Source of the DNA: a virus
Lineage: Duplodnaviria > Caudoviricetes
Direction: 5' to 3' (one strand)
DNA length: 60,962 nt
IMG/VR virus record: IMGVR_UViG_3300045922_000164
Coordinates: 1 to 60,962 of that record
Shown: positions 459 to 50,000 of the stretch, piece by piece
Layout: each line of letters starts with the position of its first letter
Numbering within the stretch: position 1 is the first letter of the stretch
The notes under the pieces: model-generated
Databases searched by the model: none
What the model was told of the DNA's origin: nothing
What the model saw: only the letters and a program-made list of their open reading frames with translations
Made by a program: the position numbers and the translations under genes

Positions 459-483
459 GGGCCAGCCCAATGCGGGCTGGCCC
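459..483. other. Hairpin GGGCCAGCCC-aatgc-GGGCTGGCCC (possible terminator or processing stem)
   Basis: Perfect 10-bp arms, intergenic. Confidence 0.45.
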
Positions 484-10581: not shown

Positions 10582-10750
10582 CTGCTATCAAAAACGTGCG
10601 CAATCATGCGCACCGTTCTCTTCCTGCCCCGACGCGTCCTGCTGACCGCATTCGTATCTGACAGGCGTGACTTTCCCGACTACGATGGGAACCATTCCCA
10701 CCGCAGTGCCGCCGTTGCCGGACGGGCTCGCCACGGGTAGGGCAGTTGCG
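10582..10750 (-). ncRNA. Probable TnpB omega/reRNA scaffold overlapping the tnpB 3' end
   Basis: Known TnpB architecture; hairpin GTGCGCA-tgat-TGCGCAC near the right end; boundaries approximate. Confidence 0.55.
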
Positions 10751-11928: not shown

Positions 11929-11947
11929 GGTTTTATGCAAGCTGGCT

Positions 11948-25801: not shown

Positions 25802-26020
25802 CCATGATGACATTCGATGGGGTTATCGACACACGCGCGCGTGAGGCGAAAACGCCGACCGTGGCACGGTATATCGATGTACCTGGCGAAGTGCAGTACG
25901 TGGTGGTGGCACCAAGTATGGCTGCCTGCGCGACATCCACGGCAGTGTGCGCACGTGGCGCTCCTACAGCGGTGCGCGGCGCGCAGCAAAGCGATGGCTT
26001 CAAATGTGGGGAGAAATGGC

Positions 26021-26203
26021 ATGAACATCGAATCGGTAGCTGCCGCGATCTATGCGGCCAGGCCAGCGGAAGGCATGAGCGACGAGTTCAAGCGTGGTGC
26101 CGACTCTGCACGCTGGGAGGTCACGTACTTTCTGGCCAGCAAGTACGAAAACGAAGACCCGAATTTCAACGTGCGCGCCTTTCTCAAGGCGTGCGGTTTT
26201 TAA
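26021..26203 (+). CDS. Early hypothetical protein
   Basis: GGAG RBS at ATG 26021; DPNFNVRAFLKACG ending. Confidence 0.65.
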   Translation: MNIESVAAAIYAARPAEGMSDEFKRGADSARWEVTYFLASKYENEDPNFNVRAFLKACGF

Positions 26204-26222
26204 CAGAAGGAGAGCAGACTAA

Positions 26223-27209
26223 ATGAACTGGACGAACGTTCTCAAAAATTGTGTGCAAGCTCAGGTCCCGGTGATCCTCTGGGGTCCACCGGGAGTCGGC
26301 AAGACCGCCCGGGTGGGCCAGTTGGCGGAAGAAATGGGCCTGCCTCTGGAGGTGGTTGTGCTCTCGTTGCGCGACCCCACCGATGTCGCAGGACTCCCCG
26401 TCGTGACGAATGACGGGGTGGTCCTGTCCCCGCCCGCGTGGGCGAAGCGGCTGGCTCAGGCCGGGAGGGGGATCCTCTTCTTGGATGAGTTTTCGTGCGC
26501 TGCACCATCGTTGCAGGCGGCCGCGCTCCGCATCCTCTCCGAGAGGGTCATCGGTGACACGCCGCTTCCCGACGGGGTGGCGATCGTCCTGGCCGCCAAC
26601 CCTGCGGACCAGGCCGCAGGCGGGTTCGACCTGTCCGCACCGGCGGCGAACCGCTTCCTGCACCTGTACGTGACCGCCGAGCCCGCAGAGTGGGCGACGT
26701 GGGCGGCAGGGAAATCTCGCGAGCATGCCCTTGTGGCCGGCTTCATCTCCCGCCGTCCGGAGCTTCTGTGCAAGGTCCCGAATGACGCTGAGTCGGCCGG
26801 AAAAGCGTGGCCCAGCCCGCGCTCGTGGGATTTGGGTGCGCGCGCCGTCCTCGCAGGGGTGCCGCGCGATGCCGCGTACCCGGCTGCGGTCGGGGATGGG
26901 GCTGCGTTGGAATTCCTGACTTGGGTCAGGGAGGCCGACCTGCCTGATCCCGAGGGCATCCTTGCCGACCCGGATTCCGCCACGTTCCCCAAGCGTGGGG
27001 ACATGATCCATGCGGTCATGCTGTCGGTGGCGTCCGCTGTCGCATCGAACCCGACTTCAGAGCGGTGGAGTGCTGCCTGGAAGTACATCGGGCGGTCCCC
27101 GGTCCTCGATGTCGTGGTCCCGGCTGCCCGCACTCTGGTGGCCGTGCGGAAGAAGGTGCCTTCGCTGCCGCTTCCTCTGGAGGCTGCGAAGCTTGGGGAG
27201 GTGTTGTGA
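26223..27209 (+). CDS. MoxR-like AAA+ ATPase
   Basis: Walker A GPPGVGKT, Walker B ILFLDE, AANP sensor, ANRF Arg finger, PSPRSW. Confidence 0.9.
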   Translation: MNWTNVLKNCVQAQVPVILWGPPGVGKTARVGQLAEEMGLPLEVVVLSLRDPTDVAGLPVVTNDGVVLSPPAWAKRLAQAGRGILFLDEFSCAAPSLQAAALRILSERVIGDTPLPDGVAIVLAANPADQAAGGFDLSAPAANRFLHLYVTAEPAEWATWAAGKSREHALVAGFISRRPELLCKVPNDAESAGKAWPSPRSWDLGARAVLAGVPRDAAYPAAVGDGAALEFLTWVREADLPDPEGILADPDSATFPKRGDMIHAVMLSVASAVASNPTSERWSAAWKYIGRSPVLDVVVPAARTLVAVRKKVPSLPLPLEAAKLGEVL

Positions 27210-27613
27210 CGACCGAGGAACTCGAAGCAGCGTGGTCGCAATTCAGAAGGCTTACCGAAGCGAGTCAAAAACTCATTCAGTTGACCAACGCATCAAGGAT
27301 TGAAGTGCGCACCAAGATGTTTCGGGTGCGCACCACAGGGGAAGAAATAGTCATCAATGCGATGTTCGCCACACTCCATCACCCGAAGGTAAACGGGCCA
27401 GTCTATGTGTCTGGCTACGGTCTCAACAGCTTCGCGAGAATGATGGAGAAGATGAGCGTTCGGGAGTTAGCCACCTTTATGGCAACCATTGACAAGGCCA
27501 CCTCGTGGTGTCTCGACAGAATCGAAGGACTCAAGCGCGCCGAATACAACGCCCGCTTGGGTCCGTCTGGGAGACAGGTTGCTGCACGGGTGGCGATGGA
27601 GAAGATGCCATGA
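27206..27613 (+). CDS. Hypothetical protein between AAA and VWA genes
   Basis: GTGA and ATGA overlaps at both ends. Confidence 0.7.
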   Translation: MTTEELEAAWSQFRRLTEASQKLIQLTNASRIEVRTKMFRVRTTGEEIVINAMFATLHHPKVNGPVYVSGYGLNSFARMMEKMSVRELATFMATIDKATSWCLDRIEGLKRAEYNARLGPSGRQVAARVAMEKMP

Positions 27614-28836
27614 CTGACATCCGTTTACAGAAGGCTAGGGTGCGTGCGATGAGCACCCACCCCTATCTCGCCACAGCCCTGATGGCGCTTCAGCCTGTGG
27701 AAAAGCCCATCGGCACGATGGCGGTCGACTCCGGGTGGAGGTTGTACTACGACCCGGCGCAGGTAGAGACGTGGGGGACCGACAAGTCAGCCGGTGTGCT
27801 GATTCACGAGGTCGCCCACTTGCTCCGCCGGCACGCTGAAAGGCGCGGTCAACGTGATCCGCGCACGTGGAACATCGCGTGCGACGCCGAGATCAACGAC
27901 GATCTCGTGCAGGAGGTTGACCTGCCGGCGGAAGGCATCCTGCCGCAGACCCTTGGTCTCAGGGAGGGGCTGACTGCCGAGGAGTATTACAAGATCATCG
28001 AGGCGCAGCAGTCCGCCGCACACTGGTCGGGCGAGCAATCCCCCGGCGGCGACGGCGACGGCTCCTGCGGCGGTACAGGCGAAGGCGACAGCGATGCCCC
28101 CTCCGCCCAAGGCCGCAGCCCCTCGGTGACCGCAGGCGACTGCGGGTCGTGCGCGGACGGGGTGAAGCGTGAGTATGAGCTTCCCGCCGACGACGCTGAC
28201 GCACCAGGGATCACTGAGGCGGAAGCGAAAGCCATCGCACGCTCTGTCGCTCGTCAGATCGAGAGCGCCAAAGAGCGCGGCACGGTCCCGGGCGGGTGGC
28301 GCAGGTGGGCGAGCGAGCAGCTTGCGCCCCCCAGGGTTCCCTGGCAGCAGGTTCTTGCGGCCACCGTGCGTCGGACTGCGCAGACTGCGGCGGGTGTGGG
28401 GGACTACACGTACGCCCGTCCAAGCAGGCGCGGCGTCAAGGGGGTGATCCTCCCGGCGAGCCGTCGTCCGATTCCGGCGGTGTCCGTGGTCGCGGACACG
28501 TCCGGCTCGATGTCTGGCTCGGACATTGCGTCGATTCTCAGCGAGATCGACGGCATCTGCCGCACGGTCGGGCGCGTGAGGTGGATCGCAGCGGACGCCA
28601 AGATTCAGGGCAGCGGGGTCGCTACCAACGCCAAAGGCGTGCGTCTGACCGGCGGTGGAGGGACCGACCTCCGTCCTGCGATCGCGGAGGCGGACAAGGG
28701 GGCGGACGTGATCGTAGTCCTCACGGACTGCTACACGCCGTGGCCCCTCAAGCCAACGCGAGCGCACATGATCGTCTGCGCCACCCCAGGATCCACAACG
28801 TCACCCGCTTGGGCACGTAGGGTGGAGATCAGCTAA
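27610..28836 (+). CDS. Metallopeptidase-like plus VWA domain protein (DUF2201-type MoxR partner)
   Basis: HEVAHLLRRH and WNIACDAEIN; MIDAS DTSGSM, GGGGTD, LTD. Confidence 0.9.
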   Translation: MTDIRLQKARVRAMSTHPYLATALMALQPVEKPIGTMAVDSGWRLYYDPAQVETWGTDKSAGVLIHEVAHLLRRHAERRGQRDPRTWNIACDAEINDDLVQEVDLPAEGILPQTLGLREGLTAEEYYKIIEAQQSAAHWSGEQSPGGDGDGSCGGTGEGDSDAPSAQGRSPSVTAGDCGSCADGVKREYELPADDADAPGITEAEAKAIARSVARQIESAKERGTVPGGWRRWASEQLAPPRVPWQQVLAATVRRTAQTAAGVGDYTYARPSRRGVKGVILPASRRPIPAVSVVADTSGSMSGSDIASILSEIDGICRTVGRVRWIAADAKIQGSGVATNAKGVRLTGGGGTDLRPAIAEADKGADVIVVLTDCYTPWPLKPTRAHMIVCATPGSTTSPAWARRVEIS

Positions 28837-28840
28837 CGGT

Positions 28841-29137
28841 TCGGCTTGCCGCCACCAGAGTGCCCGCTGCCCCGGCGGACTGCACGATGACGGTGGCGGA
28901 ATACCGAGGGCTCACGCTTCGCAAGGAGACCTCCGGTCTCAACTTGCTCGCGTTCGCCTTCACGCGACCGTTTCTCTCGATTGGCTCCAGTGCGTAGCGC
29001 CCGACGCTCCGTCGGACCGCGCGATGACCGCACGGACAACATGCCGAAGTTTCTAGGCTTCTGCGCTTCGCTTCGCTGCCTTGGGGCGCTCCGCTCAGCT
29101 TGCGAAGCCTACAAACTTCACACGCAACGAGGCTCTC
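28841..29137 (+). ncRNA. Structured ncRNA upstream of RT (retron msr/msd-like candidate)
   Basis: Five stem-loops fill the gap, including a duplicated covarying 32-nt motif and a long terminal hairpin at 29046-29119. Confidence 0.75.
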
Positions 29138-30244
29138 ATGCTGTATTACATCGACACAAACTCCTTCTATCCTGGTCTGATTCGACCTGCCTACACGATC
29201 AAAACGATCAGGAATGGGGGGAAGGAGCGCAAGCTCTACATCTCGTCCGACATTGTGAGCAGGAAAAACCTGCGCGTTATGGCAGCCAGATTGGCGAAGC
29301 ACATCGACGAACGCAGGTACATGCACGACCACGGCTTCCGCGGTGGCCGCTCTCCGGTGACGTGCGCTGCTTCACTGAGGGGCAGGAGGTACTACCTGTC
29401 CGCCGACCTCCAGGACTGTTTCCCCTCCACGACTCGTGAGATGGTGAGGCGCGGCCTGAACTTGGCCGGTGCGTCGATAGACGACGACCTGCTGGAGATC
29501 ATCACGCCAGATGGCGCTCCACAGCAAGGCATCCCGACGAGCCCGATCCTTGTGGCGATCGCCCTCAAGGCTCTCGACATGGAGATCGTGAAGCGGTGGC
29601 CTGGGGTGCTCTACTCGCGGTATGCGGACGACCTGAACTTCGCGACAGACTCGCTTGAGGTGGCGCGCGAGATCAGGCGCGAGCTTCCTGGGATCGCCGA
29701 CCGTCTCGGGTGGAAAGTGAACCCGAGGAAGTGGCAGATGACCGACTCGAAGGTGTGCCGGCCGGTCATCTGTGGCGTCGTGCTTGACGGGAATAGAACG
29801 CGCCCGACGCGCGAGTTCCGCAAGGTGCTTCGCGCAGCCGAGCATGCAGGATCAGACTCCTACCGCACGAGAGGATTGCACGGGTGGACCGCTACCGCAG
29901 TCCGTGAACTTCCTCCACACGGCCGTCCTGTGCGCGCTGATAATAGGGGGTGGGACATCACTTACCGAGGGGTGAGTCTGAAGGCTGTACTCATCAAGGG
30001 TGACTGGTACTACGAGGCGCCATCCGGACCACGCTCACCGCTGACGCTTGCCAAGCACCCAAGGATTCTGATCCCCTCTCTGTATCGGGCGTTCCACTTC
30101 GACGGTGGGTTCATGCTCGACAGGATAGACAGGGTGTGGAGGCTGTGGTCGCACAACAACGTGATAGAGAAATGGGAATCGCGACCGAAGTGGGATTACG
30201 TAAAGTCGTTGATTGCAATCAGGAAGCTAGAGAGGGAACTGTGA
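29138..30244 (+). CDS. Retron-like reverse transcriptase fused to an unknown C-terminal domain (368 aa)
   Basis: HGFRGGRS, ADLQDCFPS, PQQGIPTSP, YSRYADDL, VNPRK, VICGV; GAGG RBS before ATG 29138. Confidence 0.9.
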   Translation: MLYYIDTNSFYPGLIRPAYTIKTIRNGGKERKLYISSDIVSRKNLRVMAARLAKHIDERRYMHDHGFRGGRSPVTCAASLRGRRYYLSADLQDCFPSTTREMVRRGLNLAGASIDDDLLEIITPDGAPQQGIPTSPILVAIALKALDMEIVKRWPGVLYSRYADDLNFATDSLEVAREIRRELPGIADRLGWKVNPRKWQMTDSKVCRPVICGVVLDGNRTRPTREFRKVLRAAEHAGSDSYRTRGLHGWTATAVRELPPHGRPVRADNRGWDITYRGVSLKAVLIKGDWYYEAPSGPRSPLTLAKHPRILIPSLYRAFHFDGGFMLDRIDRVWRLWSHNNVIEKWESRPKWDYVKSLIAIRKLEREL

Positions 30245-30606
30245 GCTTGCCTCCATACGGCAAGATCATCATAAAGATCGGCGACAACAGGTGGAGCATC
30301 TGTTGGAGAGGCATCCCGATGGAAGCTGAACGCAGGGACGGAGAGTGGAGGTACTACCACACAAACCCATCATTACGAAAACAAACCTTCGGACGAACGC
30401 CGCGATATGTGGCCCAGAATATTAGTCGAGAGATTCACATCGACAGAGAGTTTCGCCTTGTGCGGTGGCATGGCATGTACGGGAGCTGGTACCTGTACAT
30501 GGGAAATGGCTATCACGCATCGGTTATCAAGGCTTGGGAGAAGAGACCAAAGCGCAATGAGTTGTTGGCCACCATCGCGATGGCAAAGCTAGAGAGGAAA
30601 CCGTGA
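30241..30606 (+). CDS. Stand-alone paralogue 1 of the RT C-terminal domain
   Basis: LPPYG...W.I.WRGI.M...W.Y...TPR...WEKRP...IAMAKLER; GTGA overlap. Confidence 0.8.
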   Translation: MSLPPYGKIIIKIGDNRWSICWRGIPMEAERRDGEWRYYHTNPSLRKQTFGRTPRYVAQNISREIHIDREFRLVRWHGMYGSWYLYMGNGYHASVIKAWEKRPKRNELLATIAMAKLERKP

Positions 30607-30974
30607 GAAAGCCGCCGCACGGGCGTGTCGTTGGAAGAGTGAACGACACGACGTGGAGAATCCTCTGGAGAGGAATCCAGATGGAGGCCGCCGCTGAACA
30701 CCACAGGTGGGTTTACCGGTGCGACGACCCAATACGCGCCAACGGGACGGCTGGCTATACGCCACGTGAAGCGGTCAAGTATTGCGGCAGGGTAATTGAG
30801 CTTGGCGGCGGATTCAGTCTCGTCAGGCTGTGCGGCATGTACGGATACTGGTATCTGTACAAAGGATCGCGCTACTCGAAGTTCAGTCGCATGGTCTGTC
30901 AGTGGGGAAAAAGGCCGCCACGCAGCGTAGTGTTGTCAACCATCGCACTGGAGAAGCTGGAGGAAAGCACATGA
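30603..30974 (+). CDS. Stand-alone paralogue 2 of the RT C-terminal domain
   Basis: KPPHG...WRILWRGIQM...TPR...GMYGYWYLY...WGKRP...IALEKLE; GTGA overlap. Confidence 0.8.
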   Translation: MRKPPHGRVVGRVNDTTWRILWRGIQMEAAAEHHRWVYRCDDPIRANGTAGYTPREAVKYCGRVIELGGGFSLVRLCGMYGYWYLYKGSRYSKFSRMVCQWGKRPPRSVVLSTIALEKLEEST

Positions 30975-31159
30975 GATCGGAGGAAGAGCACTACTTGGAC
31001 GAGAAATACTTCATCTCCAAGAGGAAGACAAACGATGGTGAGGAATGGATCCTATGCAGGAACGGATTGACGTTTGCATGGATCCTGCACAGGTGGAAGG
31101 ATAAGCCGTCCATAGAGGAAGCGATGGCGACAGTTGCCATATTGAAATTGGGAGCATAG
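30971..31159 (+). CDS. Half-length paralogue 3 (C-terminal half of the same domain)
   Basis: HYLDEKYFI...W...WKDKP...ATVAILKL; ATGA overlap. Confidence 0.65.
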   Translation: MRSEEEHYLDEKYFISKRKTNDGEEWILCRNGLTFAWILHRWKDKPSIEEAMATVAILKLGA

Positions 31160-31161
31160 CG

Positions 31162-31440
31162 ATGGGTTGGATTGAAGACTCGAAGAGAACGATGGAGCGC
31201 TGGCTGGAAGACGGGGACACATGGATCGGTGTCTTCCAGAACAGAGACCTTTCGAGCAGCGATTGCGGGCGCACGATTGCGCTCCCGTTCTCGCTGAGCG
31301 ACGGGTCGTACGAGAAGGCCGAAGTAGGCAAGTCGCGAGCGCCGGACACGAGTGCCGGTCTCGGATGGCGGTACATCCTCATCGGTAAGGCCACGAGTGC
31401 CGACGAGGCAATTTCTTTCTTCAACACGGAGGGCAAATGA
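31162..31440 (+). CDS. Hypothetical protein
   Basis: GGAG RBS, coupled to the next gene. Confidence 0.7.
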   Translation: MGWIEDSKRTMERWLEDGDTWIGVFQNRDLSSSDCGRTIALPFSLSDGSYEKAEVGKSRAPDTSAGLGWRYILIGKATSADEAISFFNTEGK

Positions 31441-32504
31441 AAGGTGGAATGGAACTGAAAGATCTGGCGGCTGAAATCAGGCGGCGTGCAGAGAGCAAGC
31501 GTGATCTGCTTGCTCCTGTGTCGAAGCTCGTCATGGAGGGTGGTGGCCAGCTTTCAGTCATCAACGGGAAGCTGGAGCGGTACCTCGTCAACGAGATCGC
31601 GCACGAGCAGATCGCCGACTACACCGGCATCCCCATGGGGTACTACCGGAGAATGCTCGCCGACGAGAGCGCGATCCTGGCGACGAACGTCAACCACTGG
31701 TTCGGCCGCAAGGAGAATGACCGCAGGCTGGTCAGGACGCTGGACGGGAAGGTCCGCGCGTTCCTGTCGGACAAGTACCGGCCGCTGGAGCATGAGGATC
31801 TGGCTGAGGCTGTCCTGCCGATCATCGGTCAGGCGCGGATGCAGATCGTCTCCGCCTACATCACCGACCGCAAGCTGTACATCAAGGCGATCGAACCGAG
31901 CACGCTCCGCTCGGTGCCGACCGGCAAGAAGGTTGGGGCGTCGGTCGAGCATCAGCAGGTCTGCCCTGCGGTCGTCATCTCGAACTCCGAGGTCGGGCAT
32001 GGCGCGCTCCAGATCCTCTCCGGGGTCTACACGCAGCGCGATCACCTGATGACGATGGGTGCGAGCCTGCGCAAGTACCACACGGGGGCGCGCGCAGACA
32101 TCTCCGACGAAGTGTACGAGATGCTGTCGGACGATACCAAGCGCGCCACCGATGTGGCCCTCTGGAAGCAGGTGCAGGACATCGTGCGGTCAGCGGTCGA
32201 CGAGGCGAAGTTTGAGGCGATCTGCGCCAAGCTCGGTGAGGCTGCGGCCGACGTGATCCTGCCTGAGCAGGCGGTCGAGGTCGTCGAGAGGTTCGCCCGC
32301 CGGTACACCCTGCAGGACTCCGAGAAGAAGGGTGTGCTGGCCGCACTCATCGAGGGCGGAGATCTCACCAGGTTCGGGCTGTCGGCTGCGGTCTGCAGGC
32401 ACTCCGAGTTTGTGGACGACTACGACCGGGCGAGCGAGATGGAGCGGACCGCCGGAGAGATCATCGAGCTGTCCAGGAGCCAGTGGCGCGACCTGGTGAA
32501 CTAA
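31437..32504 (+). CDS. DUF932-like phage/plasmid protein
   Basis: RRLVRTLDGKVRAFLSDKYRPL, ISNSEVG.G motifs. Confidence 0.75.
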   Translation: MKGGMELKDLAAEIRRRAESKRDLLAPVSKLVMEGGGQLSVINGKLERYLVNEIAHEQIADYTGIPMGYYRRMLADESAILATNVNHWFGRKENDRRLVRTLDGKVRAFLSDKYRPLEHEDLAEAVLPIIGQARMQIVSAYITDRKLYIKAIEPSTLRSVPTGKKVGASVEHQQVCPAVVISNSEVGHGALQILSGVYTQRDHLMTMGASLRKYHTGARADISDEVYEMLSDDTKRATDVALWKQVQDIVRSAVDEAKFEAICAKLGEAAADVILPEQAVEVVERFARRYTLQDSEKKGVLAALIEGGDLTRFGLSAAVCRHSEFVDDYDRASEMERTAGEIIELSRSQWRDLVN

Positions 32505-32506
32505 AC

Positions 32507-32535
32507 TGGTGGGGCGCAATGCCCCACTATTTTTT
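32507..32535 (+). terminator. Intrinsic terminator
   Basis: GTGGGGC-gcaat-GCCCCAC followed by a T-tract. Confidence 0.8.
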
Positions 32536-32548
32536 GCATGGAGCAAAC

Positions 32549-32890
32549 ATGAAAGCACTCATTGCATCCGCACTTCTGACAATCTCGCTGAGCGCGCACG
32601 CCGGAAGCACATTCTTCATCTCCGGGAACAAGCTGCTCGAATGGTGCGAAAACGAGCGTTTGTCTCCAATGTGCTACGGATACGTAGTCGGGGTGGCAGA
32701 CTCGAAGATGAAGCACTGCCCGATGCCTGGTGTAACGGTCAAGCAGATGGGGAACACGGTGATCAAGTACGCGAAGATGATGCCGGAAAACCTTCATGGT
32801 CCGGCAGACGTGCTCGTTCACGCGATACTGAGCTACGCATTCAACTGCGAGATCGAAAACAAAAAAGATGGAGCGCTGAGGATGATGTAA
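32549..32890 (+). CDS. Rap1a/Tai-like immunity-family secreted protein
   Basis: Signal peptide; GNKLLEWC...CYGYVVGVAD...C.....T..Q...V..Y...P......A..LV...L..AF.C pattern. Confidence 0.7.
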   Translation: MKALIASALLTISLSAHAGSTFFISGNKLLEWCENERLSPMCYGYVVGVADSKMKHCPMPGVTVKQMGNTVIKYAKMMPENLHGPADVLVHAILSYAFNCEIENKKDGALRMM

Positions 32891-33354
32891 TGCACAAGCA
32901 AGAAGTAATCAGAACCGGGGACATCACCCTCTACATCGACTACGGCATCAACGAGGTGGGCGGGCATCAGAGGTTCTTCATCCTTGGTGTCCTGTACGAC
33001 GGCTTCAAGCTCGTTGAGAGCGGGAAAATATTCGACACCATCAGGAAGCTGGCACCCGGGAAGTACGACGACCTGATGGCGCTCCATCAGTGCGACATCA
33101 ATGGTGCGCACGTCAACAGCAGGAAGCTGGCGTGGATCCTCGTGAAACGCATCCTCAGAAAAGACCTGTGGGCAGAGCGAGAGAACAACATCGAAGATCT
33201 ACGCAGGATCCTGCGCGCTACCGATGAGGAGGTGAACGAACTCATCGAACGGTGCCAGAAAGAGGGTGGTGCTCCAATCGATGAATACCTGAGCCGGAAG
33301 ATTCCGCTATGGAAGGCGGAAGCTGCTCTGGCTCGAATCAACCACGGACTGTGA
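32890..33354 (+). CDS. Hypothetical protein
   Basis: TAATG coupling; LHQCDING.H motif. Confidence 0.65.
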   Translation: MHKQEVIRTGDITLYIDYGINEVGGHQRFFILGVLYDGFKLVESGKIFDTIRKLAPGKYDDLMALHQCDINGAHVNSRKLAWILVKRILRKDLWAERENNIEDLRRILRATDEEVNELIERCQKEGGAPIDEYLSRKIPLWKAEAALARINHGL

Positions 33355-33364
33355 CGGAGGAAAC

Positions 33365-33556
33365 ATGAAGGAGTCGTATCTGCAAAAGCTGAAAGAGCAA
33401 TACAGGCTGCGCGACAAGACCTACAAGGCACTCAAGATGGTGCTCGTCGACGGTCGAAGCTGGAGGGATGCAGAGCGCACGACAGGTGTCGCGCGCTCGA
33501 CAATCTTCAGATCCCTCCAGAGGATCGGGATCCTCAAGAAGGTGACGCACTTGTAG
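33365..33556 (+). CDS. Small HTH DNA-binding protein
   Basis: SWRDAERTTGVARSTIFRSL helix-turn-helix; GGAGG RBS. Confidence 0.7.
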   Translation: MKESYLQKLKEQYRLRDKTYKALKMVLVDGRSWRDAERTTGVARSTIFRSLQRIGILKKVTHL

Positions 33557-34139
33557 GGGTGGCGTCAGGGATCTTCTCAAAGAACGACGGGGGCGGGGTG
33601 ATTCCGCCCTCGATCATCGGTGCCACTACCTCTGCGATGTATCGCTGGCAGGCTTGCAGTTGCCTGACTGCTCGATCTGCTCGATCGGCTTCCCGGACAA
33701 GAAACTCTCGATCCGGCAGAGGAAGTTGGCTTCGGTCGGCTTCATAATCCCGGCAGGTGGAGGGGGCAGCTTCGGCTGGGAGGAGGGGACGGGCGGCGGC
33801 TTGCTGGCGCAGCCGCTCAATGACAGCGCGATAACGGCGACAATCATTCTCAATGATCTGCTCATACTCCCTCCTGATCTTCTCGTTCGCTGCTCTCGCC
33901 TCCTCCTCTACCTTCCTCGCCCTCTCTTCGGCTTCACGTAGCTGCTCTGCGTACTGAAGCTCCCGCTCGCTCCATCTCTTCCCCCACTTGTCTTCGTTCT
34001 GCAAGACAGCCTGCTTGACCCTCTCGTTCGCATCACTGCATCCGTACAGGTAGCCCGAGATGCCGCTCACGATGATGGCCAGAGCTACCATCGACATCAA
34101 ACGGGGTGACGCAAGACCAAGCACGAACCACCCGATCAC
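33534..34139 (-). CDS. Inner-membrane spanin (Rz-like)
   Basis: N-terminal TM, coiled coil, QLQACQRYI. Confidence 0.8.
   Translation of the reverse strand: MIGWFVLGLASPRLMSMVALAIIVSGISGYLYGCSDANERVKQAVLQNEDKWGKRWSERELQYAEQLREAEERARKVEEEARAANEKIRREYEQIIENDCRRYRAVIERLRQQAAARPLLPAEAAPSTCRDYEADRSQLPLPDREFLVREADRADRAVRQLQACQRYIAEVVAPMIEGGITPPPSFFEKIPDATPTSASPS
33626..33865 (-). CDS. Outer-membrane spanin lipoprotein (Rz1-like), embedded in Rz
   Basis: Lipobox LSGC and Pro-rich segment in an alternative frame. Confidence 0.8.
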   Translation of the reverse strand: MSRSLRMIVAVIALSLSGCASKPPPVPSSQPKLPPPPAGIMKPTEANFLCRIESFLSGKPIEQIEQSGNCKPASDTSQR

Positions 34140-43773: not shown

Positions 43774-44054
43774 AGAACTACCTCGTTGACGAGGAGAGAG
43801 AGCGCCGGCTCAGGGCACAGGTCGAGTCTGCCCTGCGCCGGATCCCTCCTGAAGTCGTCAACGGCGGAGTGATGAGGGCGCAAGCCTACAAGCGGTGGGC
43901 TGAGGAAGCCATCAGGATCCTGAAGAACCCGAAATCTGTGCCTGGGCAGTTCGAGTCGCTCATGTTCCACCTGAACTACCTGTGCAGCGACGAGTTCATG
44001 GTCGCACCTTCTCGGCCGTCTTCTTCGCCTCCTCCCGAAGACGATCAACCCTGA
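43767..44054 (+). CDS. Hypothetical protein
   Basis: ORF track; overlaps the 3' end of the giant gene. Confidence 0.55.
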   Translation: MVKNYLVDEERERRLRAQVESALRRIPPEVVNGGVMRAQAYKRWAEEAIRILKNPKSVPGQFESLMFHLNYLCSDEFMVAPSRPSSSPPPEDDQP

Positions 44055-47000
44055 CCTGCACCCTGCGGTCGAACTCCTCCTGCGTGATCCCACGGCGGGC
44101 AAGCTGCCGGGCGAGACCACGGATCTCCTCCTCCGTGCGCTCTTTGTAAGCCTTGAACTCCTGCACAGCCCTGAGCCTCATCTCGTCAGGCGGGTAGGAC
44201 TTGATCTTCACCCCGACGGATGACGCGAGAGCCTGACCAAGGCTCACTTCTCGCCCGAACGGGTCGAGCTTGCCTCTCAACGCAGACTCGATGGCCGTCC
44301 AGCTCCACGTCTGGAAATGGCCGGTCTCCGCCATCGGGATGACGTACCCCGGTCCGGGAAGAGGCAGGTTCGGCATCATCGCTTTGAAGAACCAGTCGCC
44401 GAACTTGATCGCCCGCTCAAGAGGGGTGTCGTTCTCGTCGATGATGGGCTTCCCTGTGAACTGGGACTTGTTGACGAAGAACTCCGCCATCAGGGACAGG
44501 GGGCCGCCAACGGAGAGCCAGTCAGGAACCGGGATGATTGCCTGGCTGGATTGCACGTCGAAGACGCTCCCACCTGGGACCCAACGGCGCACGTCGAGGA
44601 ATACCGGGGAGCCGTGCCGGTCGTTCCATGGCAGCCTGATCATCCTCGGGAAGATGCCGAAGACCCGACCGGAAAGCTCTTCCGGCATCAGCCTGCGCTC
44701 GCGCTCCTCGTCGCCGTCCGCACCAAGCAGGGAGTACGCGAGCGAGTTGAGGACGCTGGCGATCGTCCAGTATTTGGCGATCTTCCACGGCTTCTTGAAT
44801 GCCGTCTCGATCATCAGCGGGATCGCCCGGTAGCTGAACGCGATGAACGGGAGCCCGGTCCTACGGGCGGCCTGAACCCAGGGAGCGTTGATGTCGTAGT
44901 TCAGGAACGCATCACGTGCGGCCTTCCCGGCTTCGATGTCGCTCTTGCCGGCGTCGATCTCGCGCATGAACTTCGCCAGACGGAAGACCGAATCCTCCTG
45001 CTGGTAGAGGGAAACGAGAGTGTCGAACGGAAGTCTTCCTCTGCTCAAGAGAGACTTCGTGGCGTCCATGTTGCCCTTGAGCGACATCCAGACAAGCTGC
45101 ATGACCGATATCTTGCTGATGTCGGACTCGTTCAGGCTGCCCTCGATCTGCTTCAGGATCGGGCTGATGAACTCCTCGTTGATATCTGCGGCCACGAAGC
45201 TGCCGTACTCCGCTCCGCTGTCCTCGTAGCGGTTCATCAGGGCGACAGCCTGCGGGTCTCCCTTCTTCGCCTTGATGATGACGTTGAGCGCACCGATGAT
45301 GTCCCTCACGCGAACGTCGGCAACGTCCGCCATGATGAAGTTGGACATCACGTTGTTCATGTGGACCGACGGGCTGAGTGCGGTCTTGCTCTTCTTCCAG
45401 AACCTCAGCGTGCTGTCCCACAACTGGGAGAGCTCGCCCTCCGGGACAGCCATCGCGGTCCGGATGTCGTTCCAGATGACGCCGGGGAGAGCGCGACCAG
45501 CCAGAGCGCCATACTTGTGGATCTTCGTCCCCTGCACGTAGGTGCTTGGCACGATGACCCACTCGTCCCTGCCGTAGGTCTTGGTCGTGACGAATCCCTC
45601 TGAGGCCGGGACGATGTTGTCGACCTCCTTCGGATCCTTCGCGTACTCCCTGTTCACCCACGCCAGGAACCTTGCTGTCTCCACGTCGCGGACGGCAGCG
45701 ATGACCGTCTTCGCGAACGCGTACTTGACTTCCTCGATCTCTCCCAGTCGCTCCCGCTCCTCCTTCGTGAGGTCGCGCCACATGCCGACCTGGTTGTTCT
45801 TGTCGAAGAAGCGGGCCTCCCAGATCCCCTCGGCCTGATGCCCAGGCGGGTGGACACCAGCTTGCGCGGCCTGGAGCGGGACGTACTCGACGCTCCTGAG
45901 CCTGCCAGCTTCATCTCTGCGCTCGAACCGGACGAACAGGTCGCCCTTGTTCACCTCGTCGGTGTACTTGATCAGGGCATCATCCTTCACGTCGTCCCTG
46001 AGTCCGCGACCCCTGAAGTTCTCGGCGCGGATCGCGGCAGACCGCTTGAAGGACTTCATGAGCGTGCTGCCTTTGTCCATCAGGTGGCGAGCGTAAGTCC
46101 TGTGCAGGTACGCCATCAGGTTGCGGTTGTAGCTCTCCTCCGAGAGAAGACCCAGAGCGACAGCCTCCCGCCCAAGCTCATCCACGAGCTCCTTCATCTT
46201 GAGCAGGTGTTGCCGGCTGTCCTCAGGCAACCTGGCCATGAGACGCCTTTCAAGCTCGGTGTCAGGCTTCTCGGACATCCACAGGTACGCGATCCTGCTT
46301 TCCTCCTTCGTGAGGTTGGCAAGGTGGTCGAGGAGATTCTTCGACTCCCTGAGCCTGCGGTTGATGTGCGCCCGCTTCACGATCTTCGCGTCAAGGTAGG
46401 GCTCAGGCAGACCGTAGTCAGCGATCAGGCCGTGCGCCGCCTTCTCAAGAAGCGGGTGCTTAACTGTCTCCATCCGGCCTACGGCATGCAGCTTGTCCCA
46501 GATCGGAGACGTGATGTGCTTGGCCAGAAGCTCGAAGCCAGCCTTCTTGAAGACGAGATCGATGAGGCCGGAGTGTCCCTCGGTCGTCATCTGGGGGGCG
46601 ACCGAGTAGAACGGCTTCGGGGCCAGGTTCAGGGTGCTCTCGCGGATGAGCTTCGTGACAGCGTTCGTCCTCTCATTCTCGTCCTCGATGTTCACCGCGT
46701 CAGCCAGCTTCCCGGCCTGATCGAGCCTCAGGAGAGCCTCCGTGATCGCGACCCTTGAGATCGTCCTGTTGCCTGCGGCGACGATGTACGGGTTGACACT
46801 GGTGGTCGGCTCCGCCCTCTGTGTCTCCCCCTCCACCTTGACCCTGGCCAAAGCCTCATCGAACGCCGGCTCGTTGTAGAGGGACATCACGTCCCTGAGC
46901 CAGATCGCCATCGAGCCGACGGTGTGTTCTACGTTGTCACGGTAGATCCTGAGTCCGGCGTCATACTGGTTGGCATGCAGGCCGACGTGGTCCGTTTTCC

Positions 47001-50000
47001 CCTCGCGCAAGATCGAGTTCAGGGTGGCCTCAGCCCTCCTGATGAGAGCCCTGTCGCTCAGGCCGAACGGGTCGCCGACGAACCTCCTGTTCGTCGCCGC
47101 CGCCCACTTCATGATTGCCTGATAGATCAACGCCCCATCGGTCACGTTCTGCGTGAGGCCGATCATGTTGGCGACAGCAGTCTTGTCGTCGAAGTAGACG
47201 GTGGCTTGCGCAGTCCTCGGGATGCTGTCAGGCGGCTCACCGCGCTCAGCGGACAGCTTTCTGATCTGCTCGTCTGTGAGCTTGACCTCGATGTCCCACT
47301 TGCTGTGGGGCTGGAACGACGCGACGCCATTGAGGCTGAGGGTTGGTGACGCCTCCTGGTACGCGAACATCTCTCTGGCTGCCCGCAGAACAGGCGACTT
47401 CGTTGCTGTGATTTTTCCTCCAGACGCCTGCGTGAGGATCTTGTTCAGGTCTGAAGACTTGACGATCTTGTAGTCGAACAGCTTCCTGTTCTTCGCGAAC
47501 GCAAGGAGAGCAGCGCCAACACGAGCCTCCGTGGCTGCGCTCCGTTTGTCTCTCAGCTTCTTCGTGTCCTTGTAGACCCCAGGAACAATGTCCCCGGGGT
47601 ACTCGACGATGATGTTCGAGATGTCGCCCTCGTCGAGTCCGTCACCGTAGTCAGGCTGCTCTCCGAAGATCTCGGTCTCGATCCACTGGTCCTCCCCGGA
47701 TGTGGAGAAGAGTGGCACTGTGCGCGACATGAACTTCTGCATCATGTCGTCCGTGATGTCGAACCCCAATTGGGTTGACTCTTCGCCGTCGTAGTACGTG
47801 AAGACCTGTTTTACTCGATCTCCACCGAGCTTCTTCAGCACATCTTCGGCAACCATCGGGACGATCTTGTCGTAGAACTCAAGCATCCCTGTTCCGCCGA
47901 ATGATTCATCGACTTGAATATCTACGGCGTCGTTTTTCTTCTTTGCTTCATCTAGGGCAGAGAGAATTTTTTTGGTAAGCTCTTTGCCGAACAACTCATG
48001 CACGCCAAGTTTTTTTGCAACGTATGCAGAAGGTCCGTGCGTAACCATAAACATTGTGTTGTTGTTTTCAAGAACTCCCGATAGAACTGTGTAATGTTTT
48101 TGTGATAACCAAACGAGTCCAGTCTGAGTCACCCTGATTTTGTCAACAGCCTTCCTGAGATTATATCTATAAGCCTGCTGTGTGCCGGTTGTCCATGCAA
48201 CCTTGCGCGCTCCGCGCACGATTGCCTGATTGATCGCTGACTTGAGCGCCAAAGAAACCCAAGACTTGGTTTCTTGGATAAATGGCCCAGAAGGCGTGTA
48301 CTGGTACGACTTGAGGCGACCTAGCTCTTGCCTTGTCTTTTCTATCTCAGATTGAAGGAGTTCACTGTCGTCTTTAGATGATCTCGCAATCAGATCATCA
48401 AGCTCTTTCTTAAGCCTGAAATACGACTGCCCCTTCCTGTAGTCTTGTGCCCAGTCGCTCTGAATTTCCTGTATGAAGAATACAGGCTGACCGTCCTGAC
48501 CCTTCCTTATGTCATAACGCAAATGGAAGATTCTGTTTTTCTCGATGCCACCGAACATCCTGTGTGTAATTAGCACTTTGTAATTGATTTCTCCTGTGGC
48601 TGGTTCCCCAGCGTCGAGCGCAAGAATGCCGGCTTCAGATATACGATCCTTGGACAGTTCGTAGTCTGTGTATTGTATGAATGGGACGCTCTCAATAGAT
48701 TCGAACTCTTTGTAGTCAGCAGCGCTCTTTGCTATTTGAGTAGCCTCATTCACGGCTCGCTCAATAAGACCCTCACGTGGCCAGTAATCACTCAGATTGT
48801 ACTCGGTTATCTTCCTGTTTGTTCCCCAAACAAATACCTTGTCTTTCTTCACTACTACATACCCGGCTCCTGCCGGACCATACGCAACGAAAGCGTTCTT
48901 TGACACCCATCCGGCTCGTCTACCTGTATAGATCGCCTGCCTTTCTTTGATGTACTCTGCGCCCTCGATTGCACTAAGCACATCTTCCTTCGTGAGCTTT
49001 TTCTTCTTTTCTTTTGCGAGCTCGATGACCTCCCTGACTCCGGTCCACGCGATCTCGTCCTCTTTCACCCCCTTGTTCTTCAGGCCGTTGATGATGTTCT
49101 CCCACTGGTCTGCGGGTGCGGAGTTGACCTTCAGGTCCCTGACAGCCTTATGGAGTGGGCTGTAGGCCCACCAGGGGATGCTGGTGCTGAACTTGACCCG
49201 GCTCTGGACCGGGACTGAGGTGTGCTTGCGCCCGATCAGGACTGCCGCCCCCGAGCGCCCGAACTCGCGGGTGAGGTAGCCGTCGAAGCCGGCCTCGATG
49301 ACCGCCCTCTCGAAAGCGTTCCTGTCCTTGCTGACGAGGTTCAGCGGGTCGGCGTCAGCGTCATAGAGGTTGCGCAGCCTGACGGTATGCTCTTGGCTGC
49401 CGACGACAGACTCAGGGTGGATCCCTGAGCCGGTGTCGAAGTAGAAGTAGATCCGGTGGCTTAGCTCTGGGTCTGACTTGACCCGCTCCCACTCGTCTCC
49501 CCTGTGGTTGCGTCCGTAGTAGGCTCCGTTGAGGAACTGCCTCCGCTCGCCGGAGAAGTGGTGGCCGACGACTTCGACGGAGTGCTCTCGCGGCTCCCCG
49601 TAGACGGCTGAAGTTTCCTCTCCAGCGCTCGCCTCAGTTGCTCTTCCGCGCCCGCCATCGGGTCGCTCGAACTGGGCGACCCACCCTTCGAGCCTTTTCT
49701 GGGCGTACGCACGAAGGCGGTCGGCATCAGCACGCCTGCTCCCCCGAACACCTTCTCGTCCGGCCCCAGTTCCCTCCACGACCTGATTGCCATACCTCGT
49801 TCCCTCCAAGTAGGCTTCCGCGCTCCCTGGCTCGATCCAGTCGGAGCGGAAGCGTTTGACTCCGACATCGTACTCCTGATCCTCCGACGCGAGCGCGCTC
49901 CTGATGGCGCTCAGGAACGAGTCGTCGGAGGCGTTGGTGAAGTTCCCGATAATGAGGTGGCCGTCCTTCACCGAGTACCCAATCGGCGAGTTCACCGCGG

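What the first reader, a model, noticed from the sequence alone, without database searches (positions are those of the whole stretch)
28841..31159. Candidate new phage RT system: structured ncRNA + divergent retron-like RT fused to a domain that is tandemly amplified downstream
Seen: a 368-aa RT with intact YADD sits in a phage early operon. It is preceded by a fully structured ~300-nt non-coding gap and followed by three translationally coupled paralogues of its own C-terminal domain. Known: retron RTs carry NAxxH (region X) and VTG (region Y) and lie downstream of msr-msd. The equivalent positions here read CAASL and ICG, so the enzyme is retron-like but deviates at both signatures. I recognise no retron effector, DGR accessory gene or intron domain. 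Inference: a phage-encoded ncRNA/RT/paralogue-array system that makes ssDNA, possibly for counter-defence (decoy), inter-phage competition or host takeover.
Basis: partly seen in the sequence, partly recalled or inferred. Interest (0 to 1): 0.93.

Follow-up and report, generated by a model that had tools for sequence, protein, structure and literature searches.

The report
Phage retron-like RT with amplified tail domain
A hot-spring phage carries a retron-like reverse transcriptase behind a conserved folded RNA leader, and the enzyme's unusual C-terminal domain is repeated as three small downstream genes, an arrangement seen nowhere else so far and of unknown purpose.

Summary
At 29138-30244 there is a 368-aa RT with intact YADD. 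A 301-nt non-coding leader (28837-29137) precedes it. Three start/stop-overlapping small genes follow: p1 30241-30606, p2 30603-30974, p3 30971-31159. p1 and p2 are full copies of the RT's C-terminal domain (CTD). p3 is only its C-terminal half.

The contig is a 98%-complete tailed-phage genome. I found no tyrosine integrase or serine recombinase.

By sequence and predicted fold the RT is closest to retron RTs. It fails NCBI's curated retron cut-off (71 vs 235 bits). It has lost the N and H of NAxxH, and reads ICG where retrons have VTG.

The CTD is basic, beta-rich and has no known family. A profile search of 1.84 billion proteins found four true relatives outside the window. None of 79 other viral RT loci has it.

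The leader is under nucleotide-level constraint. A sister phage shows 0 differences in 130 nt, a fully compensated hairpin swap, and a duplicated hairpin module with covarying pairs.

My best reading is a retron-derived RT/RNA/nucleic-acid-binding-protein cassette used by a lytic-looking phage. cDNA synthesis and retron-style priming remain unshown. Verdict: a new variant of a known kind, interest 0.6.

The parts
28837..29137 (+). Non-coding structured leader, the candidate cognate RNA of the RT
   Evidence: There is no conserved reading frame, because the indels against L001 break frame. The gap has 18 differences in 301 nt: 10 sit in one hairpin and none in 29008-29137.
28849..28899 (+). Hairpin module 1: outer stem, AGA/GAUGAC internal loop, 4-bp stem, 3-nt bulge, 6-bp stem, triloop
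   Evidence: Fold energy -29.8 kcal/mol, z -3.5. It is a direct repeat of module 2.
28921..28948 (+). Variable hairpin, with its stem swapped wholesale in the sister phage
   Evidence: The window has GAGACC/GGUCUC and L001 has AGCCCC/GGGGCU, while the flanks are identical. Both versions fold.
28990..29033 (+). Hairpin module 2, a paralogue of module 1
   Evidence: 79% identical to module 1. Two pairs changed on both sides and one on one side, and 40 of 40 cells are paired. The motif occurs only at these two sites in the genome.
29046..29119 (+). Long hairpin C, ending 18 nt before the RT start codon
   Evidence: 16-nt arms 94% complementary. Fold energy -32.6 kcal/mol, z -3.85. 100% identical in L001. 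One habitat variant has 22 nt left out within 29053-29097.
28916..28925 (+). Candidate a1 arm, followed by G28926
   Evidence: It forms a 10-bp perfect Watson-Crick helix with 29099-29108. 11 of 300 dinucleotide shuffles give a helix as long. It competes with local hairpins.
29099..29108 (+). Candidate a2 arm
   Evidence: Same evidence as for the a1 arm. It lies inside the 3' arm region of hairpin C, so the two folds exclude each other.
29138..29905 (+). RT polymerase part (fingers, palm, thumb) with YADD
   Evidence: RVT_1 7e-15. PADLOC RT_IX 2.9e-26. The AF2 model's 17 best listed PDB matches are all retron RTs. dN/dS 0.16.
29906..30244 (+). RT C-terminal domain (CTD): basic, beta-rich, of no known family
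   Evidence: Beta strands from residue 263 and a C-terminal helix at 352-367. pI 10.1. Paralogous to p1 and p2. dN/dS 0.22.
30241..30606 (+). p1, a free full copy of the CTD (121 aa)
   Evidence: GTGA overlap with the RT stop. BLASTP 6e-17 to the CTD. dN/dS 0.37. pI 10.2.
30603..30974 (+). p2, a free full copy of the CTD (123 aa)
   Evidence: GTGA overlap. BLASTP 8e-31 to p1. AF2 pLDDT 87. dN/dS 0.40.
30971..31159 (+). p3, a free copy of the C-terminal half of the domain (62 aa)
   Evidence: ATGA overlap. Profile built without p3 scores it 17.9 bits, E 1.2e-7. dN/dS 0.22. One habitat variant replaces 30919-31160 with 50 nt.
31162..31440 (+). orf92, a small acidic protein starting 2 nt after p3; membership of the cassette is unknown
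   Evidence: pI 4.7. dN/dS 0.06. No family hit. It is retained in the variant that lacks p3.

Best explanation
This is a retron-derived reverse-transcriptase cassette on the genome of a tailed phage that looks virulent. It has three parts: (1) a roughly 300-nt structured leader RNA, (2) an active RT fused to a new basic, beta-rich C-terminal domain (CTD), and (3) two full free copies and one half copy of that domain, made in step with the RT through start/stop-overlapping genes.

Proposed working, all of it inferred. The leader is the RT's cognate RNA. The RT binds it and copies part of it into a small structured cDNA, retron fashion. The candidate priming site is the G after the 28916-28925 arm, and the candidate template runs leftwards from 29098. 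The CTD and its free copies are nucleic-acid-binding modules. They sit on the repeated hairpin modules and/or on the cDNA, building a multi-subunit RNA/DNA-protein particle.

The CTD copies evolve several times faster at replacement sites than their neighbours and differ among close relatives. I therefore read the cassette as a conflict device of the phage, aimed at host immunity or at competing phages, rather than as part of replication.

Shown: the anatomy, the retron affinity of the RT, the paralogy, purifying selection on all parts, and sequence and structure constraint on the leader. Inferred: cDNA synthesis, the template, binding, and the role.
For: RT identity:
- All 25 PADLOC hits shown (of 52 families matched) are retron RT models, the best being RT_IX at 2.9e-26.
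- The best PDB sequence hits are the Retron-Kva2 RT at 6.5e-13 and Ec86 at about 3e-10.
- In the Foldseek search with the AF2 model, the 17 best listed matches are retron RTs (5e-14 to 9e-11). Group II, DRT2, DRT9 and DGR RTs come after them.
- NCBIfam scores run retron 71 bits, group II 45 bits, Drt3a 17 bits.
- Catalytic motifs are intact and dN/dS is 0.16.

Lineage:
- The five CTD-bearing RTs form one clade (SH-aLRT 99) on a long stem of 1.42 among 66 retron-like RTs. This is the quick tree; the careful search did not finish.

Paralogy and coupling. The RT/p1 and p1/p2 junctions are themselves a DNA repeat.

The paralogues are real genes:
- dN/dS is 0.22-0.40, against 0.06-0.08 for the flanking genes.
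- The array is kept in L001.

Nucleic-acid binding is plausible:
- The CTD, p1 and p2 have pI 9.9-10.2 and are rich in W and Y.
- The C-terminal half folds as a beta-sheet plus helix. Its best, sub-threshold matches are the AcrIF24 N-domain (Z 6.2) and an integrase arm-type DNA-binding domain (Z 5.2).

Leader:
- There are 0 differences in 29008-29137 against L001, while the 11,153-nt aligned block is 94.1% identical. By my own arithmetic about 7.7 differences would be expected, giving a Poisson P of about 5e-4.
- All 18 gap differences lie in predicted loops or unpaired stretches, or preserve pairing.
- In the variable hairpin, 4 of 6 stem pairs changed on both sides when the two stems are put in structural register. 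That register is my own reading. The MAFFT/RNAalifold alignment counts only 2.
- The two hairpin modules keep 40 of 40 cells paired, with 2 pairs changed on both sides. Slid controls pair only 15-45%.
- The module occurs nowhere else in the genome.
- The leader lies on the same strand as the RT and immediately upstream, as in retrons (layout as in Mestre 2020, PMC7736814, passages read).
Against: - No retron msr or other RNA family is matched.
- The histidine of NAxxH, described as the most conserved residue of region X and possibly needed for initiation (PMC7736814), is a leucine here. At least 90% of the 66 aligned RTs keep it.
- The a1/a2 candidate is only marginal: 11 of 300 shuffles do as well. 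It is mutually exclusive with hairpin C and with the local hairpin.
- In L001 the base after the a1 arm is A, not G.
- Folding energy does not pick the strand. The minus strand gives z -2.9 and the plus strand z -2.3. Only one U-G to C-G change and co-orientation with the RT favour the plus strand.
- Covariation rests on two phages plus one internal duplication.
- No read data can show an RNA or a cDNA. All laid runs are DNA contigs.
- The CTD has no significant structural relative, so nucleic-acid binding is a guess from charge and a weak fold resemblance.
- A weak terminator-like hairpin at 28948-28967 could mean that the 5' part of the leader belongs to the upstream transcript.
Confidence: 0.5

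Rival explanations
1. The leader is only an mRNA element, such as a processing site, an attenuator or terminator, or a translational control of the RT. On this view the RT copies some other RNA of phage or host, or works without a dedicated template.
For: - Hairpin C ends 18 nt before the start codon, and the Shine-Dalgarno sequence lies just after it.
- A weak terminator-like site lies at 28948-28967.
- The cassette sits inside a co-oriented gene block bracketed by terminator-like sites at 26172-26195 and 32507-32529.
- No msr family is matched.
- The H of NAxxH is lost.
- The strand is not resolved by folding energy.
Against: - 130 nt without a single change, next to genes that differ at 5-15% of positions, is more than a shape-only element needs.
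- The duplicated module keeps the unpaired GAUGAC and bulge sequences as well as the pairs, which suggests specific recognition.
- The module occurs only here in the genome. A general phage processing or termination signal would be expected at other gene junctions too.
Confidence: 0.2
2. It is an ordinary retron-type abortive-infection or superinfection-exclusion system that happens to ride on a phage. RT plus msDNA would hold a toxic effector, the CTD and p1-p3, in check until a rival phage triggers it.
For: - The RT has retron affinity.
- Several retron types carry the effector fused to the RT C-terminus (PADLOC model names RT-Toprim, RT-DUF3800, RT-Protease, RT-TIR; Mestre 2020, PMC7736814).
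- The CTD copies evolve faster than their neighbours and have lower GC3.
- One habitat variant lacks p3.
Against: - No integrase or serine recombinase is found in a 98%-complete genome. There is therefore no obvious lysogen to protect.
- The cassette is translationally chained into a conserved phage gene block rather than standing alone.
- The CTD shows no enzymatic or membrane signature and matches no defence model.
Confidence: 0.15
3. It is a decaying or selfish remnant: a captured RT gene with recent junk duplications and no function for the phage.
For: - The family is tiny: four true relatives outside the window in 1.84 billion representatives.
- p3 is a half copy.
- The array is variable among habitat contigs.
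Against: - All ORFs are intact in both phages, with dN/dS 0.16-0.40.
- The copies are old: they share 33-42% identity.
- The RT-CTD fusion is kept in a relative only 40% identical (P0069).
- The leader is more conserved than the coding DNA.
Confidence: 0.05
4. It is a diversity-generating retroelement or a group II intron RT.
For: Both kinds occur in phages. Group II RTs are the next-best matches after retron RTs.
Against: - No template/variable repeat pair involves the locus.
- No intron RNA is found.
- No maturase, endonuclease or Avd-like partner is present.
- Scores are lower than for retron RTs.
Confidence: 0.02

Closest known systems
Retrons (msr-msd ncRNA + RT + effector), e.g. Ec86 and type IX Retron-Kva2/Yin1
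   Same: The RT core is closest to retron RTs by profile, PDB sequence and predicted fold. A structured non-coding region lies directly upstream on the same strand. Accessory proteins are encoded next to the RT. In type IX, msDNA scaffolds a multi-subunit assembly with a nucleic-acid-binding partner (abstracts of 10.64898/2026.07.14.737667 and 10.64898/2026.07.14.738597; section 8 of the latter).
   Different: It fails the curated retron model, at 71 vs 235 bits. NAxxH reads CAASL and VTG reads ICG. There is no HEPN, KH-HTH/WH or any other known effector. The partner proteins are copies of the RT's own C-terminal domain. It sits in a phage with no tyrosine integrase or serine recombinase found. 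An msr-msd fold and msDNA are unproven.
Retron types with an effector fused to the RT C-terminus (I-C Toprim, VII-A1 DUF3800, XI protease, XII TIR)
   Same: The architecture is an RT plus a C-terminal extra domain (model names).
   Different: Here the fused domain belongs to no known family. It is also present as free, translationally coupled copies. None of 51 other viral RT loci with a tail of at least 50 aa has a neighbour paralogous to its tail.
Viral retron-like RT clusters from metagenome surveys (RTC3/RTC5 in PMC13681634)
   Same: These are retron-like RTs on viral contigs, with roles in interference with host defence proposed but untested (passages read).
   Different: That survey, as far as I read it, describes RT clades only. 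It does not describe this C-terminal domain, its array or the leader. Its supplementary tables were not seen, so I cannot say whether this RT is in its lists.
ncRNA-dependent defence RTs of the UG/Abi lineage (DRT2, DRT9)
   Same: An RT works with a dedicated structured ncRNA encoded beside it. These RTs appear as weaker structural matches.
   Different: They are a different RT lineage: Drt3a scores 17 bits and the DRT structures rank below all retron RTs. No homology of the RNA or of the partners is seen.

Membership tests
Retron | RT closer to retron RTs than to any other RT class | tested here: met
   All 25 PADLOC hits shown are retron RT models. The 17 best listed Foldseek PDB matches are retron RTs. 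NCBIfam scores run retron 71, group II 45, Drt3a 17 bits.
Retron | RT passes a curated retron RT model | tested here: not met
   NF038233 retron_St85_RT scores 71.3 bits against a cut-off of 235. NF038237 scores 52.4 against 450. The best PADLOC model gives only 90 bits.
Retron | [quoted passage not shown] | tested here: not met
   CAASL aligns to NATPH of Ec86. H is kept in at least 90% of the 66 aligned RTs but not in this clade. The 40%-identical relative P0069 keeps H, reading AALAH.
Retron | [quoted passage not shown] | tested here: inconclusive
   It reads ICG. G is kept and invariant in the 66-sequence alignment, while V and T are replaced. The type IX Kva2 RT also deviates, reading VHG in the alignment.
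Retron | Adjacent msr-msd ncRNA with terminal inverted repeats a1/a2 and a branching G | tested here: inconclusive
   A structured, conserved leader is present. One 10-bp candidate a1/a2 pair is followed by G in the window but by A in L001. 11 of 300 shuffles give a helix as long. It competes with other helices. There is no Rfam hit.
Retron | Production of msDNA with a 2'-5' branch | not testable with these tools
   Only DNA contigs were available for laying.
Retron | Known effector partner of one of the 13 types | tested here: not met
   The paralogues give 0 hits: p1-p3 in Pfam and PADLOC, p1-p2 in PHROGs and NCBIfam.
Retron type IX | HEPN RNase plus KH-HTH/WH subunit next to the RT | tested here: not met
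   No such domains occur in 26-33.5 kb. The RT_IX model scores only 90 bits.
Diversity-generating retroelement | Template/variable repeat pair and an accessory Avd-like gene | tested here: not met
   No direct repeat links the locus to another gene. The search used a 12-nt seed and a 30-nt minimum length, so very divergent pairs could be missed.
Group II intron | Intron RNA domains and a maturase (X) domain | tested here: not met
   No Rfam intron hit at E up to 1 in 27000-33000. TIGR04416 scores 45 bits against a cut-off of 300.
UG/Abi/DRT reverse transcriptases | RT matches a UG/Abi/DRT model better than other classes | tested here: not met
   Drt3a scores 16.9 bits against a cut-off of 200. 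No DRT or Abi model is among the 25 PADLOC hits shown. DRT structures rank below all listed retron RTs.

The most novel reading that the evidence does not exclude
A virulent phage has turned retron machinery into a weapon of its own. During infection the RT copies its leader RNA into a structured cDNA, and the RT's CTD and its free copies polymerise on the repeated hairpin modules and the cDNA. The resulting particle would act as a decoy or sponge for host nucleases or nucleic-acid-sensing immunity, or would exclude rival phages. This would be the first offensive, phage-side use of retron-type reverse transcription. It would also define a new nucleic-acid-binding domain family that spread by in-place amplification.
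Probability: 0.2. Interest if true: 0.85.

Novelty: new variant of a known kind. Interest (0 to 1): 0.6.

Why it matters
Retrons are understood as bacterial defence devices. What retron-like RTs do on phage genomes is an open question, raised but not answered by metagenome surveys (PMC13681634).

This cassette is a compact, testable case with four useful properties. The RT is active-looking. The candidate cognate RNA has clear comparative support. The partner protein is a domain of the RT itself, released as free copies. The phage context shows no integrase.

If the RT does make cDNA from its leader, three things follow:
- It would show how a phage uses reverse transcription during lytic growth.
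- It would add a new RNA- or DNA-binding fold.
- It would offer a thermophile-derived RT/ncRNA pair of possible use for in-cell DNA production.

Tried and rejected
Tools and searches that gave nothing:
No earlier notes were seen.
- DNA similarity of 26001-34000 to 50,697 phage records: no match. tblastn of the RT found only 3 weak hits, at most 33% identity over the RT core.
- Scans for relatives of the RT: metagenome contigs found none and genome contigs found none. Viral contigs returned only one other contig, IMGVR_UViG_3300045136_000341, fetched as L001, L002, L005, L006 and L086. Queries with P0069 and P0066 gave nothing useful.
- Rfam at E up to 1 over 27000-33000: only a chance HOTAIR_2 match at E 0.49, and no msr, intron or other family.
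- Covariance model of the hairpin module over 81 sources (699,667 nt): only the four training copies scored well. L071 scored E 0.0037 on the opposite strand and L012 scored E 0.16. I treat both as chance.

Fold of p2:
- Foldseek PDB gave no match at E up to 0.001, and BFVD gave none.
- The ESM Atlas gave no usable hit.
- The best VIA-align result was Z 6.2, below the tool's own noise guide of about 8.

Other attempts:
- Complex prediction of RT with p1 gave no verdict. I use it neither for nor against binding.
- Sequencing runs: no RNA holder was listed. All four laid runs are DNA contigs, so they cannot show RNA ends, cDNA or expression. Several 'joints' in the array have 'between: not known' and I did not use them to count copies.
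- Synteny checks in Faecalibacterium phage Roos, Mycobacterium phage Typha and Thermus phage phiFa did not show whether the cassette is an insertion. phiFa_26 is not homologous to orf355.
- I considered the idea that the hairpins are N4-type promoters for a virion RNA polymerase. The 3929-aa ORF gives only a marginal vRNAP hit (E 8.7e-4, 17 bits), and the module occurs nowhere else in the genome. I did not pursue it.
- An alternative-frame ORF at 28981-29439 is rejected. By my count from the translations, it collects about 10 amino-acid changes against L001 where the RT frame has 5 over the same stretch.
- Searches failed on a size limit and on frame. They were corrected.
- The careful tree search did not finish, so the quick tree is reported.
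Apart from that field and this line, the report is unchanged.
Full report
**What the window is.** The 60,962-nt window is a whole virus record. CheckV rates it 98% complete. It encodes a major head protein, portal, large and small terminase, tail fibres, internal virion proteins, a DnaB-type helicase, an endolysin and an Rz-like spanin. No tyrosine integrase (PF00589) or serine recombinase (PF00239) was found, so it looks virulent. The runs that hold the stretch are labelled hot-spring and microbial-mat metagenomes.

**The observation.**
- The RT ORF runs 29081-30244. The ATG at 29138 has GAGG 5 nt upstream and gives 368 aa.
- Pfam RVT_1 scores 7e-15, and YADD is intact.
- The upstream gene, a DUF2201/VWA-like protein, stops at 28836, leaving 301 nt of gap.
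- Downstream, p1 (30241-30606), p2 (30603-30974) and p3 (30971-31159) each start inside the previous stop codon (GTGA, GTGA, ATGA). Each has its own Shine-Dalgarno sequence.
- The RT's last 110 or so residues are homologous to p1 (BLASTP 6e-17), and p1 is homologous to p2 (8e-31).
- p3 gives no BLASTP hit to p2. It does match the C-terminal half of a profile built without it, at 17.9-19.2 bits and E about 1e-7; the best of 1000 shuffles scores 10.1. So the array is two full copies and one half copy.
- The RT/p1 and p1/p2 junctions are themselves a 37-nt DNA repeat, as expected of tandem duplication.

**The RT.**
- All 25 PADLOC hits shown, of 52 families matched, are retron RT models. The best is RT_IX at 2.9e-26 and 90 bits.
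- Against PDB sequences the best hits are the type IX Retron-Kva2 RT (6.5e-13) and Ec86 (about 3e-10), ahead of a group II intron RT (1.2e-7).
- An AlphaFold model built on 66 sequences has mean pLDDT 80. Its 17 best listed Foldseek matches are all retron RTs (5e-14 to 9e-11). Group II, DRT2, G2L4, DRT9 and DGR enzymes follow.
- Even so, the RT fails NCBI's curated retron models: 71 vs 235 bits for retron_St85_RT.
CAASL aligns with NATPH of Ec86, and ICG aligns with VTG.
- Mestre et al. 2020 (PMC7736814, passages read) name H as the most conserved residue of region X and G as the most conserved residue of region Y. Here H is lost and G is kept. In the 66-sequence alignment H is kept in at least 90% of rows, and the 40%-identical relative P0069 still has it.
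- The nearest database RTs, at most 41% identical, do not fit any one retron type either. Ten that I tested score 83-161 bits spread over many types.
- In a quick maximum-likelihood tree of the 66 sequences, the five CTD-bearing RTs form one clade (SH-aLRT 99) on a long stem of 1.42 (the careful search did not finish).

**The C-terminal domain and its copies.**
- The domain matches nothing in Pfam or PADLOC (p1-p3) or in PHROGs or NCBIfam (p1-p2).
- A profile of the eight copies from the two phages, run against 1.84 billion representatives, gave nine proteins at E up to 0.001. Two are the window's own p2 and p3. Three are repetitive proteins that I judge false. Four are true relatives: P0002 (an RT, 80% identical), P0065 (123 aa), P0066 (120 aa) and P0069 (a 336-aa RT-CTD fusion, 40% identical).
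- P0065 and P0002 share the same longest-contig length, 12,687 nt, which suggests they lie on one contig.
- Among 63 RT homologues from the word-indexed search, only 2 carry the domain.
- In 79 other viral loci with related RTs (the best 80 of 314 confirmed), the domain profile hits nothing.
- None of the 51 loci whose RT has a tail of at least 50 aa has a neighbour paralogous to that tail. The other 28 loci were dropped for a short tail or for lack of a clear RT ORF.
- The AF2 model of p2 (pLDDT 87) shows an N-terminal four-strand meander, then a beta-sheet-plus-helix subdomain at residues 61-123. p3 corresponds to that second subdomain.
- Foldseek finds nothing for it in PDB or BFVD.
- VIA-align's best matches, all for residues 61-123, are the AcrIF24 N-domain (Z 6.2, rmsd 2.0 over 53 residues) and an integrase arm-type DNA-binding domain (Z 5.2). 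Both lie below the tool's noise guide.
- The CTD, p1 and p2 are strongly basic (pI 9.9-10.2) and rich in aromatic residues. p3 is near neutral.
- Against the sister phage, dN/dS is 0.22 (CTD), 0.37 (p1), 0.40 (p2) and 0.22 (p3). The RT core gives 0.16 and the flanking genes 0.06-0.08. These are real genes under purifying selection, but they change faster than their neighbours.
- Their GC3 (0.66-0.69) is below that of the RT core and the upstream genes (0.79).

**The leader.**
- L001, from an IMG/VR contig whose RT is 92% identical, keeps the whole layout.
- The gap differs at 18 of 301 positions. Ten of these fall in one hairpin (28926-40), and none falls in 29008-29137. The surrounding 11,153-nt alignment is 94.1% identical.
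- The indels of 1, 2 and 1 nt break every frame.
- The variable hairpin reads GAGACC-UCC-GGUCUC in the window and AGCCCC-U-GGGGCU in L001. Both fold. Put in structural register, which is my own reading, four of the six pairs changed on both sides.
- A 33-nt direct repeat (28859-28891 and 28996-29028, 79% identical) turns out to be a duplicated hairpin module. Each copy has an outer stem, an internal loop with an invariant 3' GAUGAC (GACGAC in L001 module 1), a 4-bp stem, a 3-nt bulge, a 6-bp stem and a triloop.
- Over the four copies, 40 of 40 cells pair. Two pairs changed on both sides and one on one side. Sliding the partner by 1-3 columns drops pairing to 15-45%.
- The module occurs only at these two places in the genome and in no other viral contig than the sister's.
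- Hairpin C (29046-29119; z -3.85) is identical in both phages. In one diverged habitat contig, 22 nt are left out within 29053-29097. The same contig replaces 28772-28944 with 170 unlike letters.

**Is it a retron ncRNA?** This is undecided.
- The best long-range helix is 28916-28925 with 29099-29108: ten perfect pairs, followed by G28926. That would fit the a1/a2-plus-branching-G layout.
- However, 11 of 300 dinucleotide shuffles do as well.
- The helix excludes hairpin C and the local extension of the variable hairpin.
- L001 has A at the position after the arm.
- Rfam gives nothing.
- Folding energy does not choose the strand: z is -2.3 for plus and -2.9 for minus. A single U-G to C-G change and co-orientation with the RT favour plus.

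**How I think it works.**
- Shown: an active-looking RT of retron descent; a neighbouring RNA element under sequence and structure constraint; and a new basic domain present once on the RT and 2.5 times free, made in fixed proportion by translational coupling.
- Inferred: the leader is the RT's cognate RNA and at least partly its template. The CTD copies bind the repeated modules and/or the cDNA. The particle serves the phage in a conflict with host immunity or with other phages.
- The type IX retron structures make such a particle plausible. There, msDNA scaffolds a large assembly with a nucleic-acid-binding partner (abstracts; section 8 of the Kva2 preprint). None of the type IX partner proteins is present here.

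**Novelty.** Retron-like RTs on viral contigs are already reported at survey level (PMC13681634, passages read).
- My literature searches for phage-encoded retrons (listings and abstracts only, beyond the papers named above) turned up no description of an RT whose C-terminal domain is repeated as neighbouring genes, and none of this leader.
- Supplementary tables were not seen, so prior listing of the RT itself cannot be excluded.
- I rate it a new variant of a known kind.

Noticed in passing
window 475-774 vs 58725-59024; 1374-1673 vs 59627-59926: The two ends of the contig share 300-nt stretches at 90-93% identity with a constant spacing of about 58,253 nt. This is either paralogous tail-fibre genes at both ends, or an assembly that wraps round a roughly 58.25-kb genome and joins two strains.
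   Followed up: no
window 60246-60695: There are four to five tandem copies of a 90-nt unit inside the last large minus-strand ORF. A related 71-nt piece lies at 1990-2060. This looks like a repeat-built fibre protein.
   Followed up: no
window 43996-55785 (-): This is a single 3929-aa ORF. Its N-terminus resembles lytic transglycosylase or endolysin families. There is only a marginal hit to N4-type virion RNA polymerase (E 8.7e-4, 17 bits). tblastn with the DUF2201-family (VWA-like) gene product next to the AAA ATPase gene finds records of about 74-78 kb that I recall as N4-like (Acinetobacter, Pseudomonas) and Thermus phage phiFa. The phage may therefore be a distant N4-like virus.
   Followed up: partly
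window 10588-11940 (-): A transposase-family gene (phrog_506, 2.4e-108) sits in the middle of the structural gene block.
   Followed up: no
window 28857-28859 with 28886-28891, and 28995-28996 with 29023-29028: The internal loop of module 1 has AGA on one strand and GAUGAC on the other, closed by a C-G pair. From my recollection of the kink-turn consensus (a 3-nt bulge followed by tandem G-A pairs), it fits that motif. Module 2 fits less well (UA on the short strand). No tool tested this.
   Followed up: no
window 26172-26195 and 32507-32529 (+): Two good terminator-like hairpins with T-runs bracket the co-oriented block from the AAA ATPase gene to orf355. The RT cassette therefore seems to lie inside one transcription unit. 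These are consensus matches only.
   Followed up: no
window 32483-32890 (+): orf135 is a small protein with a hydrophobic signal-like N-terminus (phrog_3870). It is the fastest-changing gene in the block: 77% nt identity to L001, 44 of 135 residues changed, dN/dS 0.44.
   Followed up: no
window 29891-31159: The CTD and p1-p3 have lower GC (0.48-0.58) and lower GC3 (0.66-0.69) than the RT core and the upstream genes (GC3 0.79). This could reflect a different origin or faster turnover of this part of the cassette.
   Followed up: partly
window 53218-53375 and 53033-53116 (inside the 3929-aa ORF): There are runs of 18-nt and 24-30-nt tandem repeats. They suggest a low-complexity, repeat-built segment in the giant protein.
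   Followed up: no
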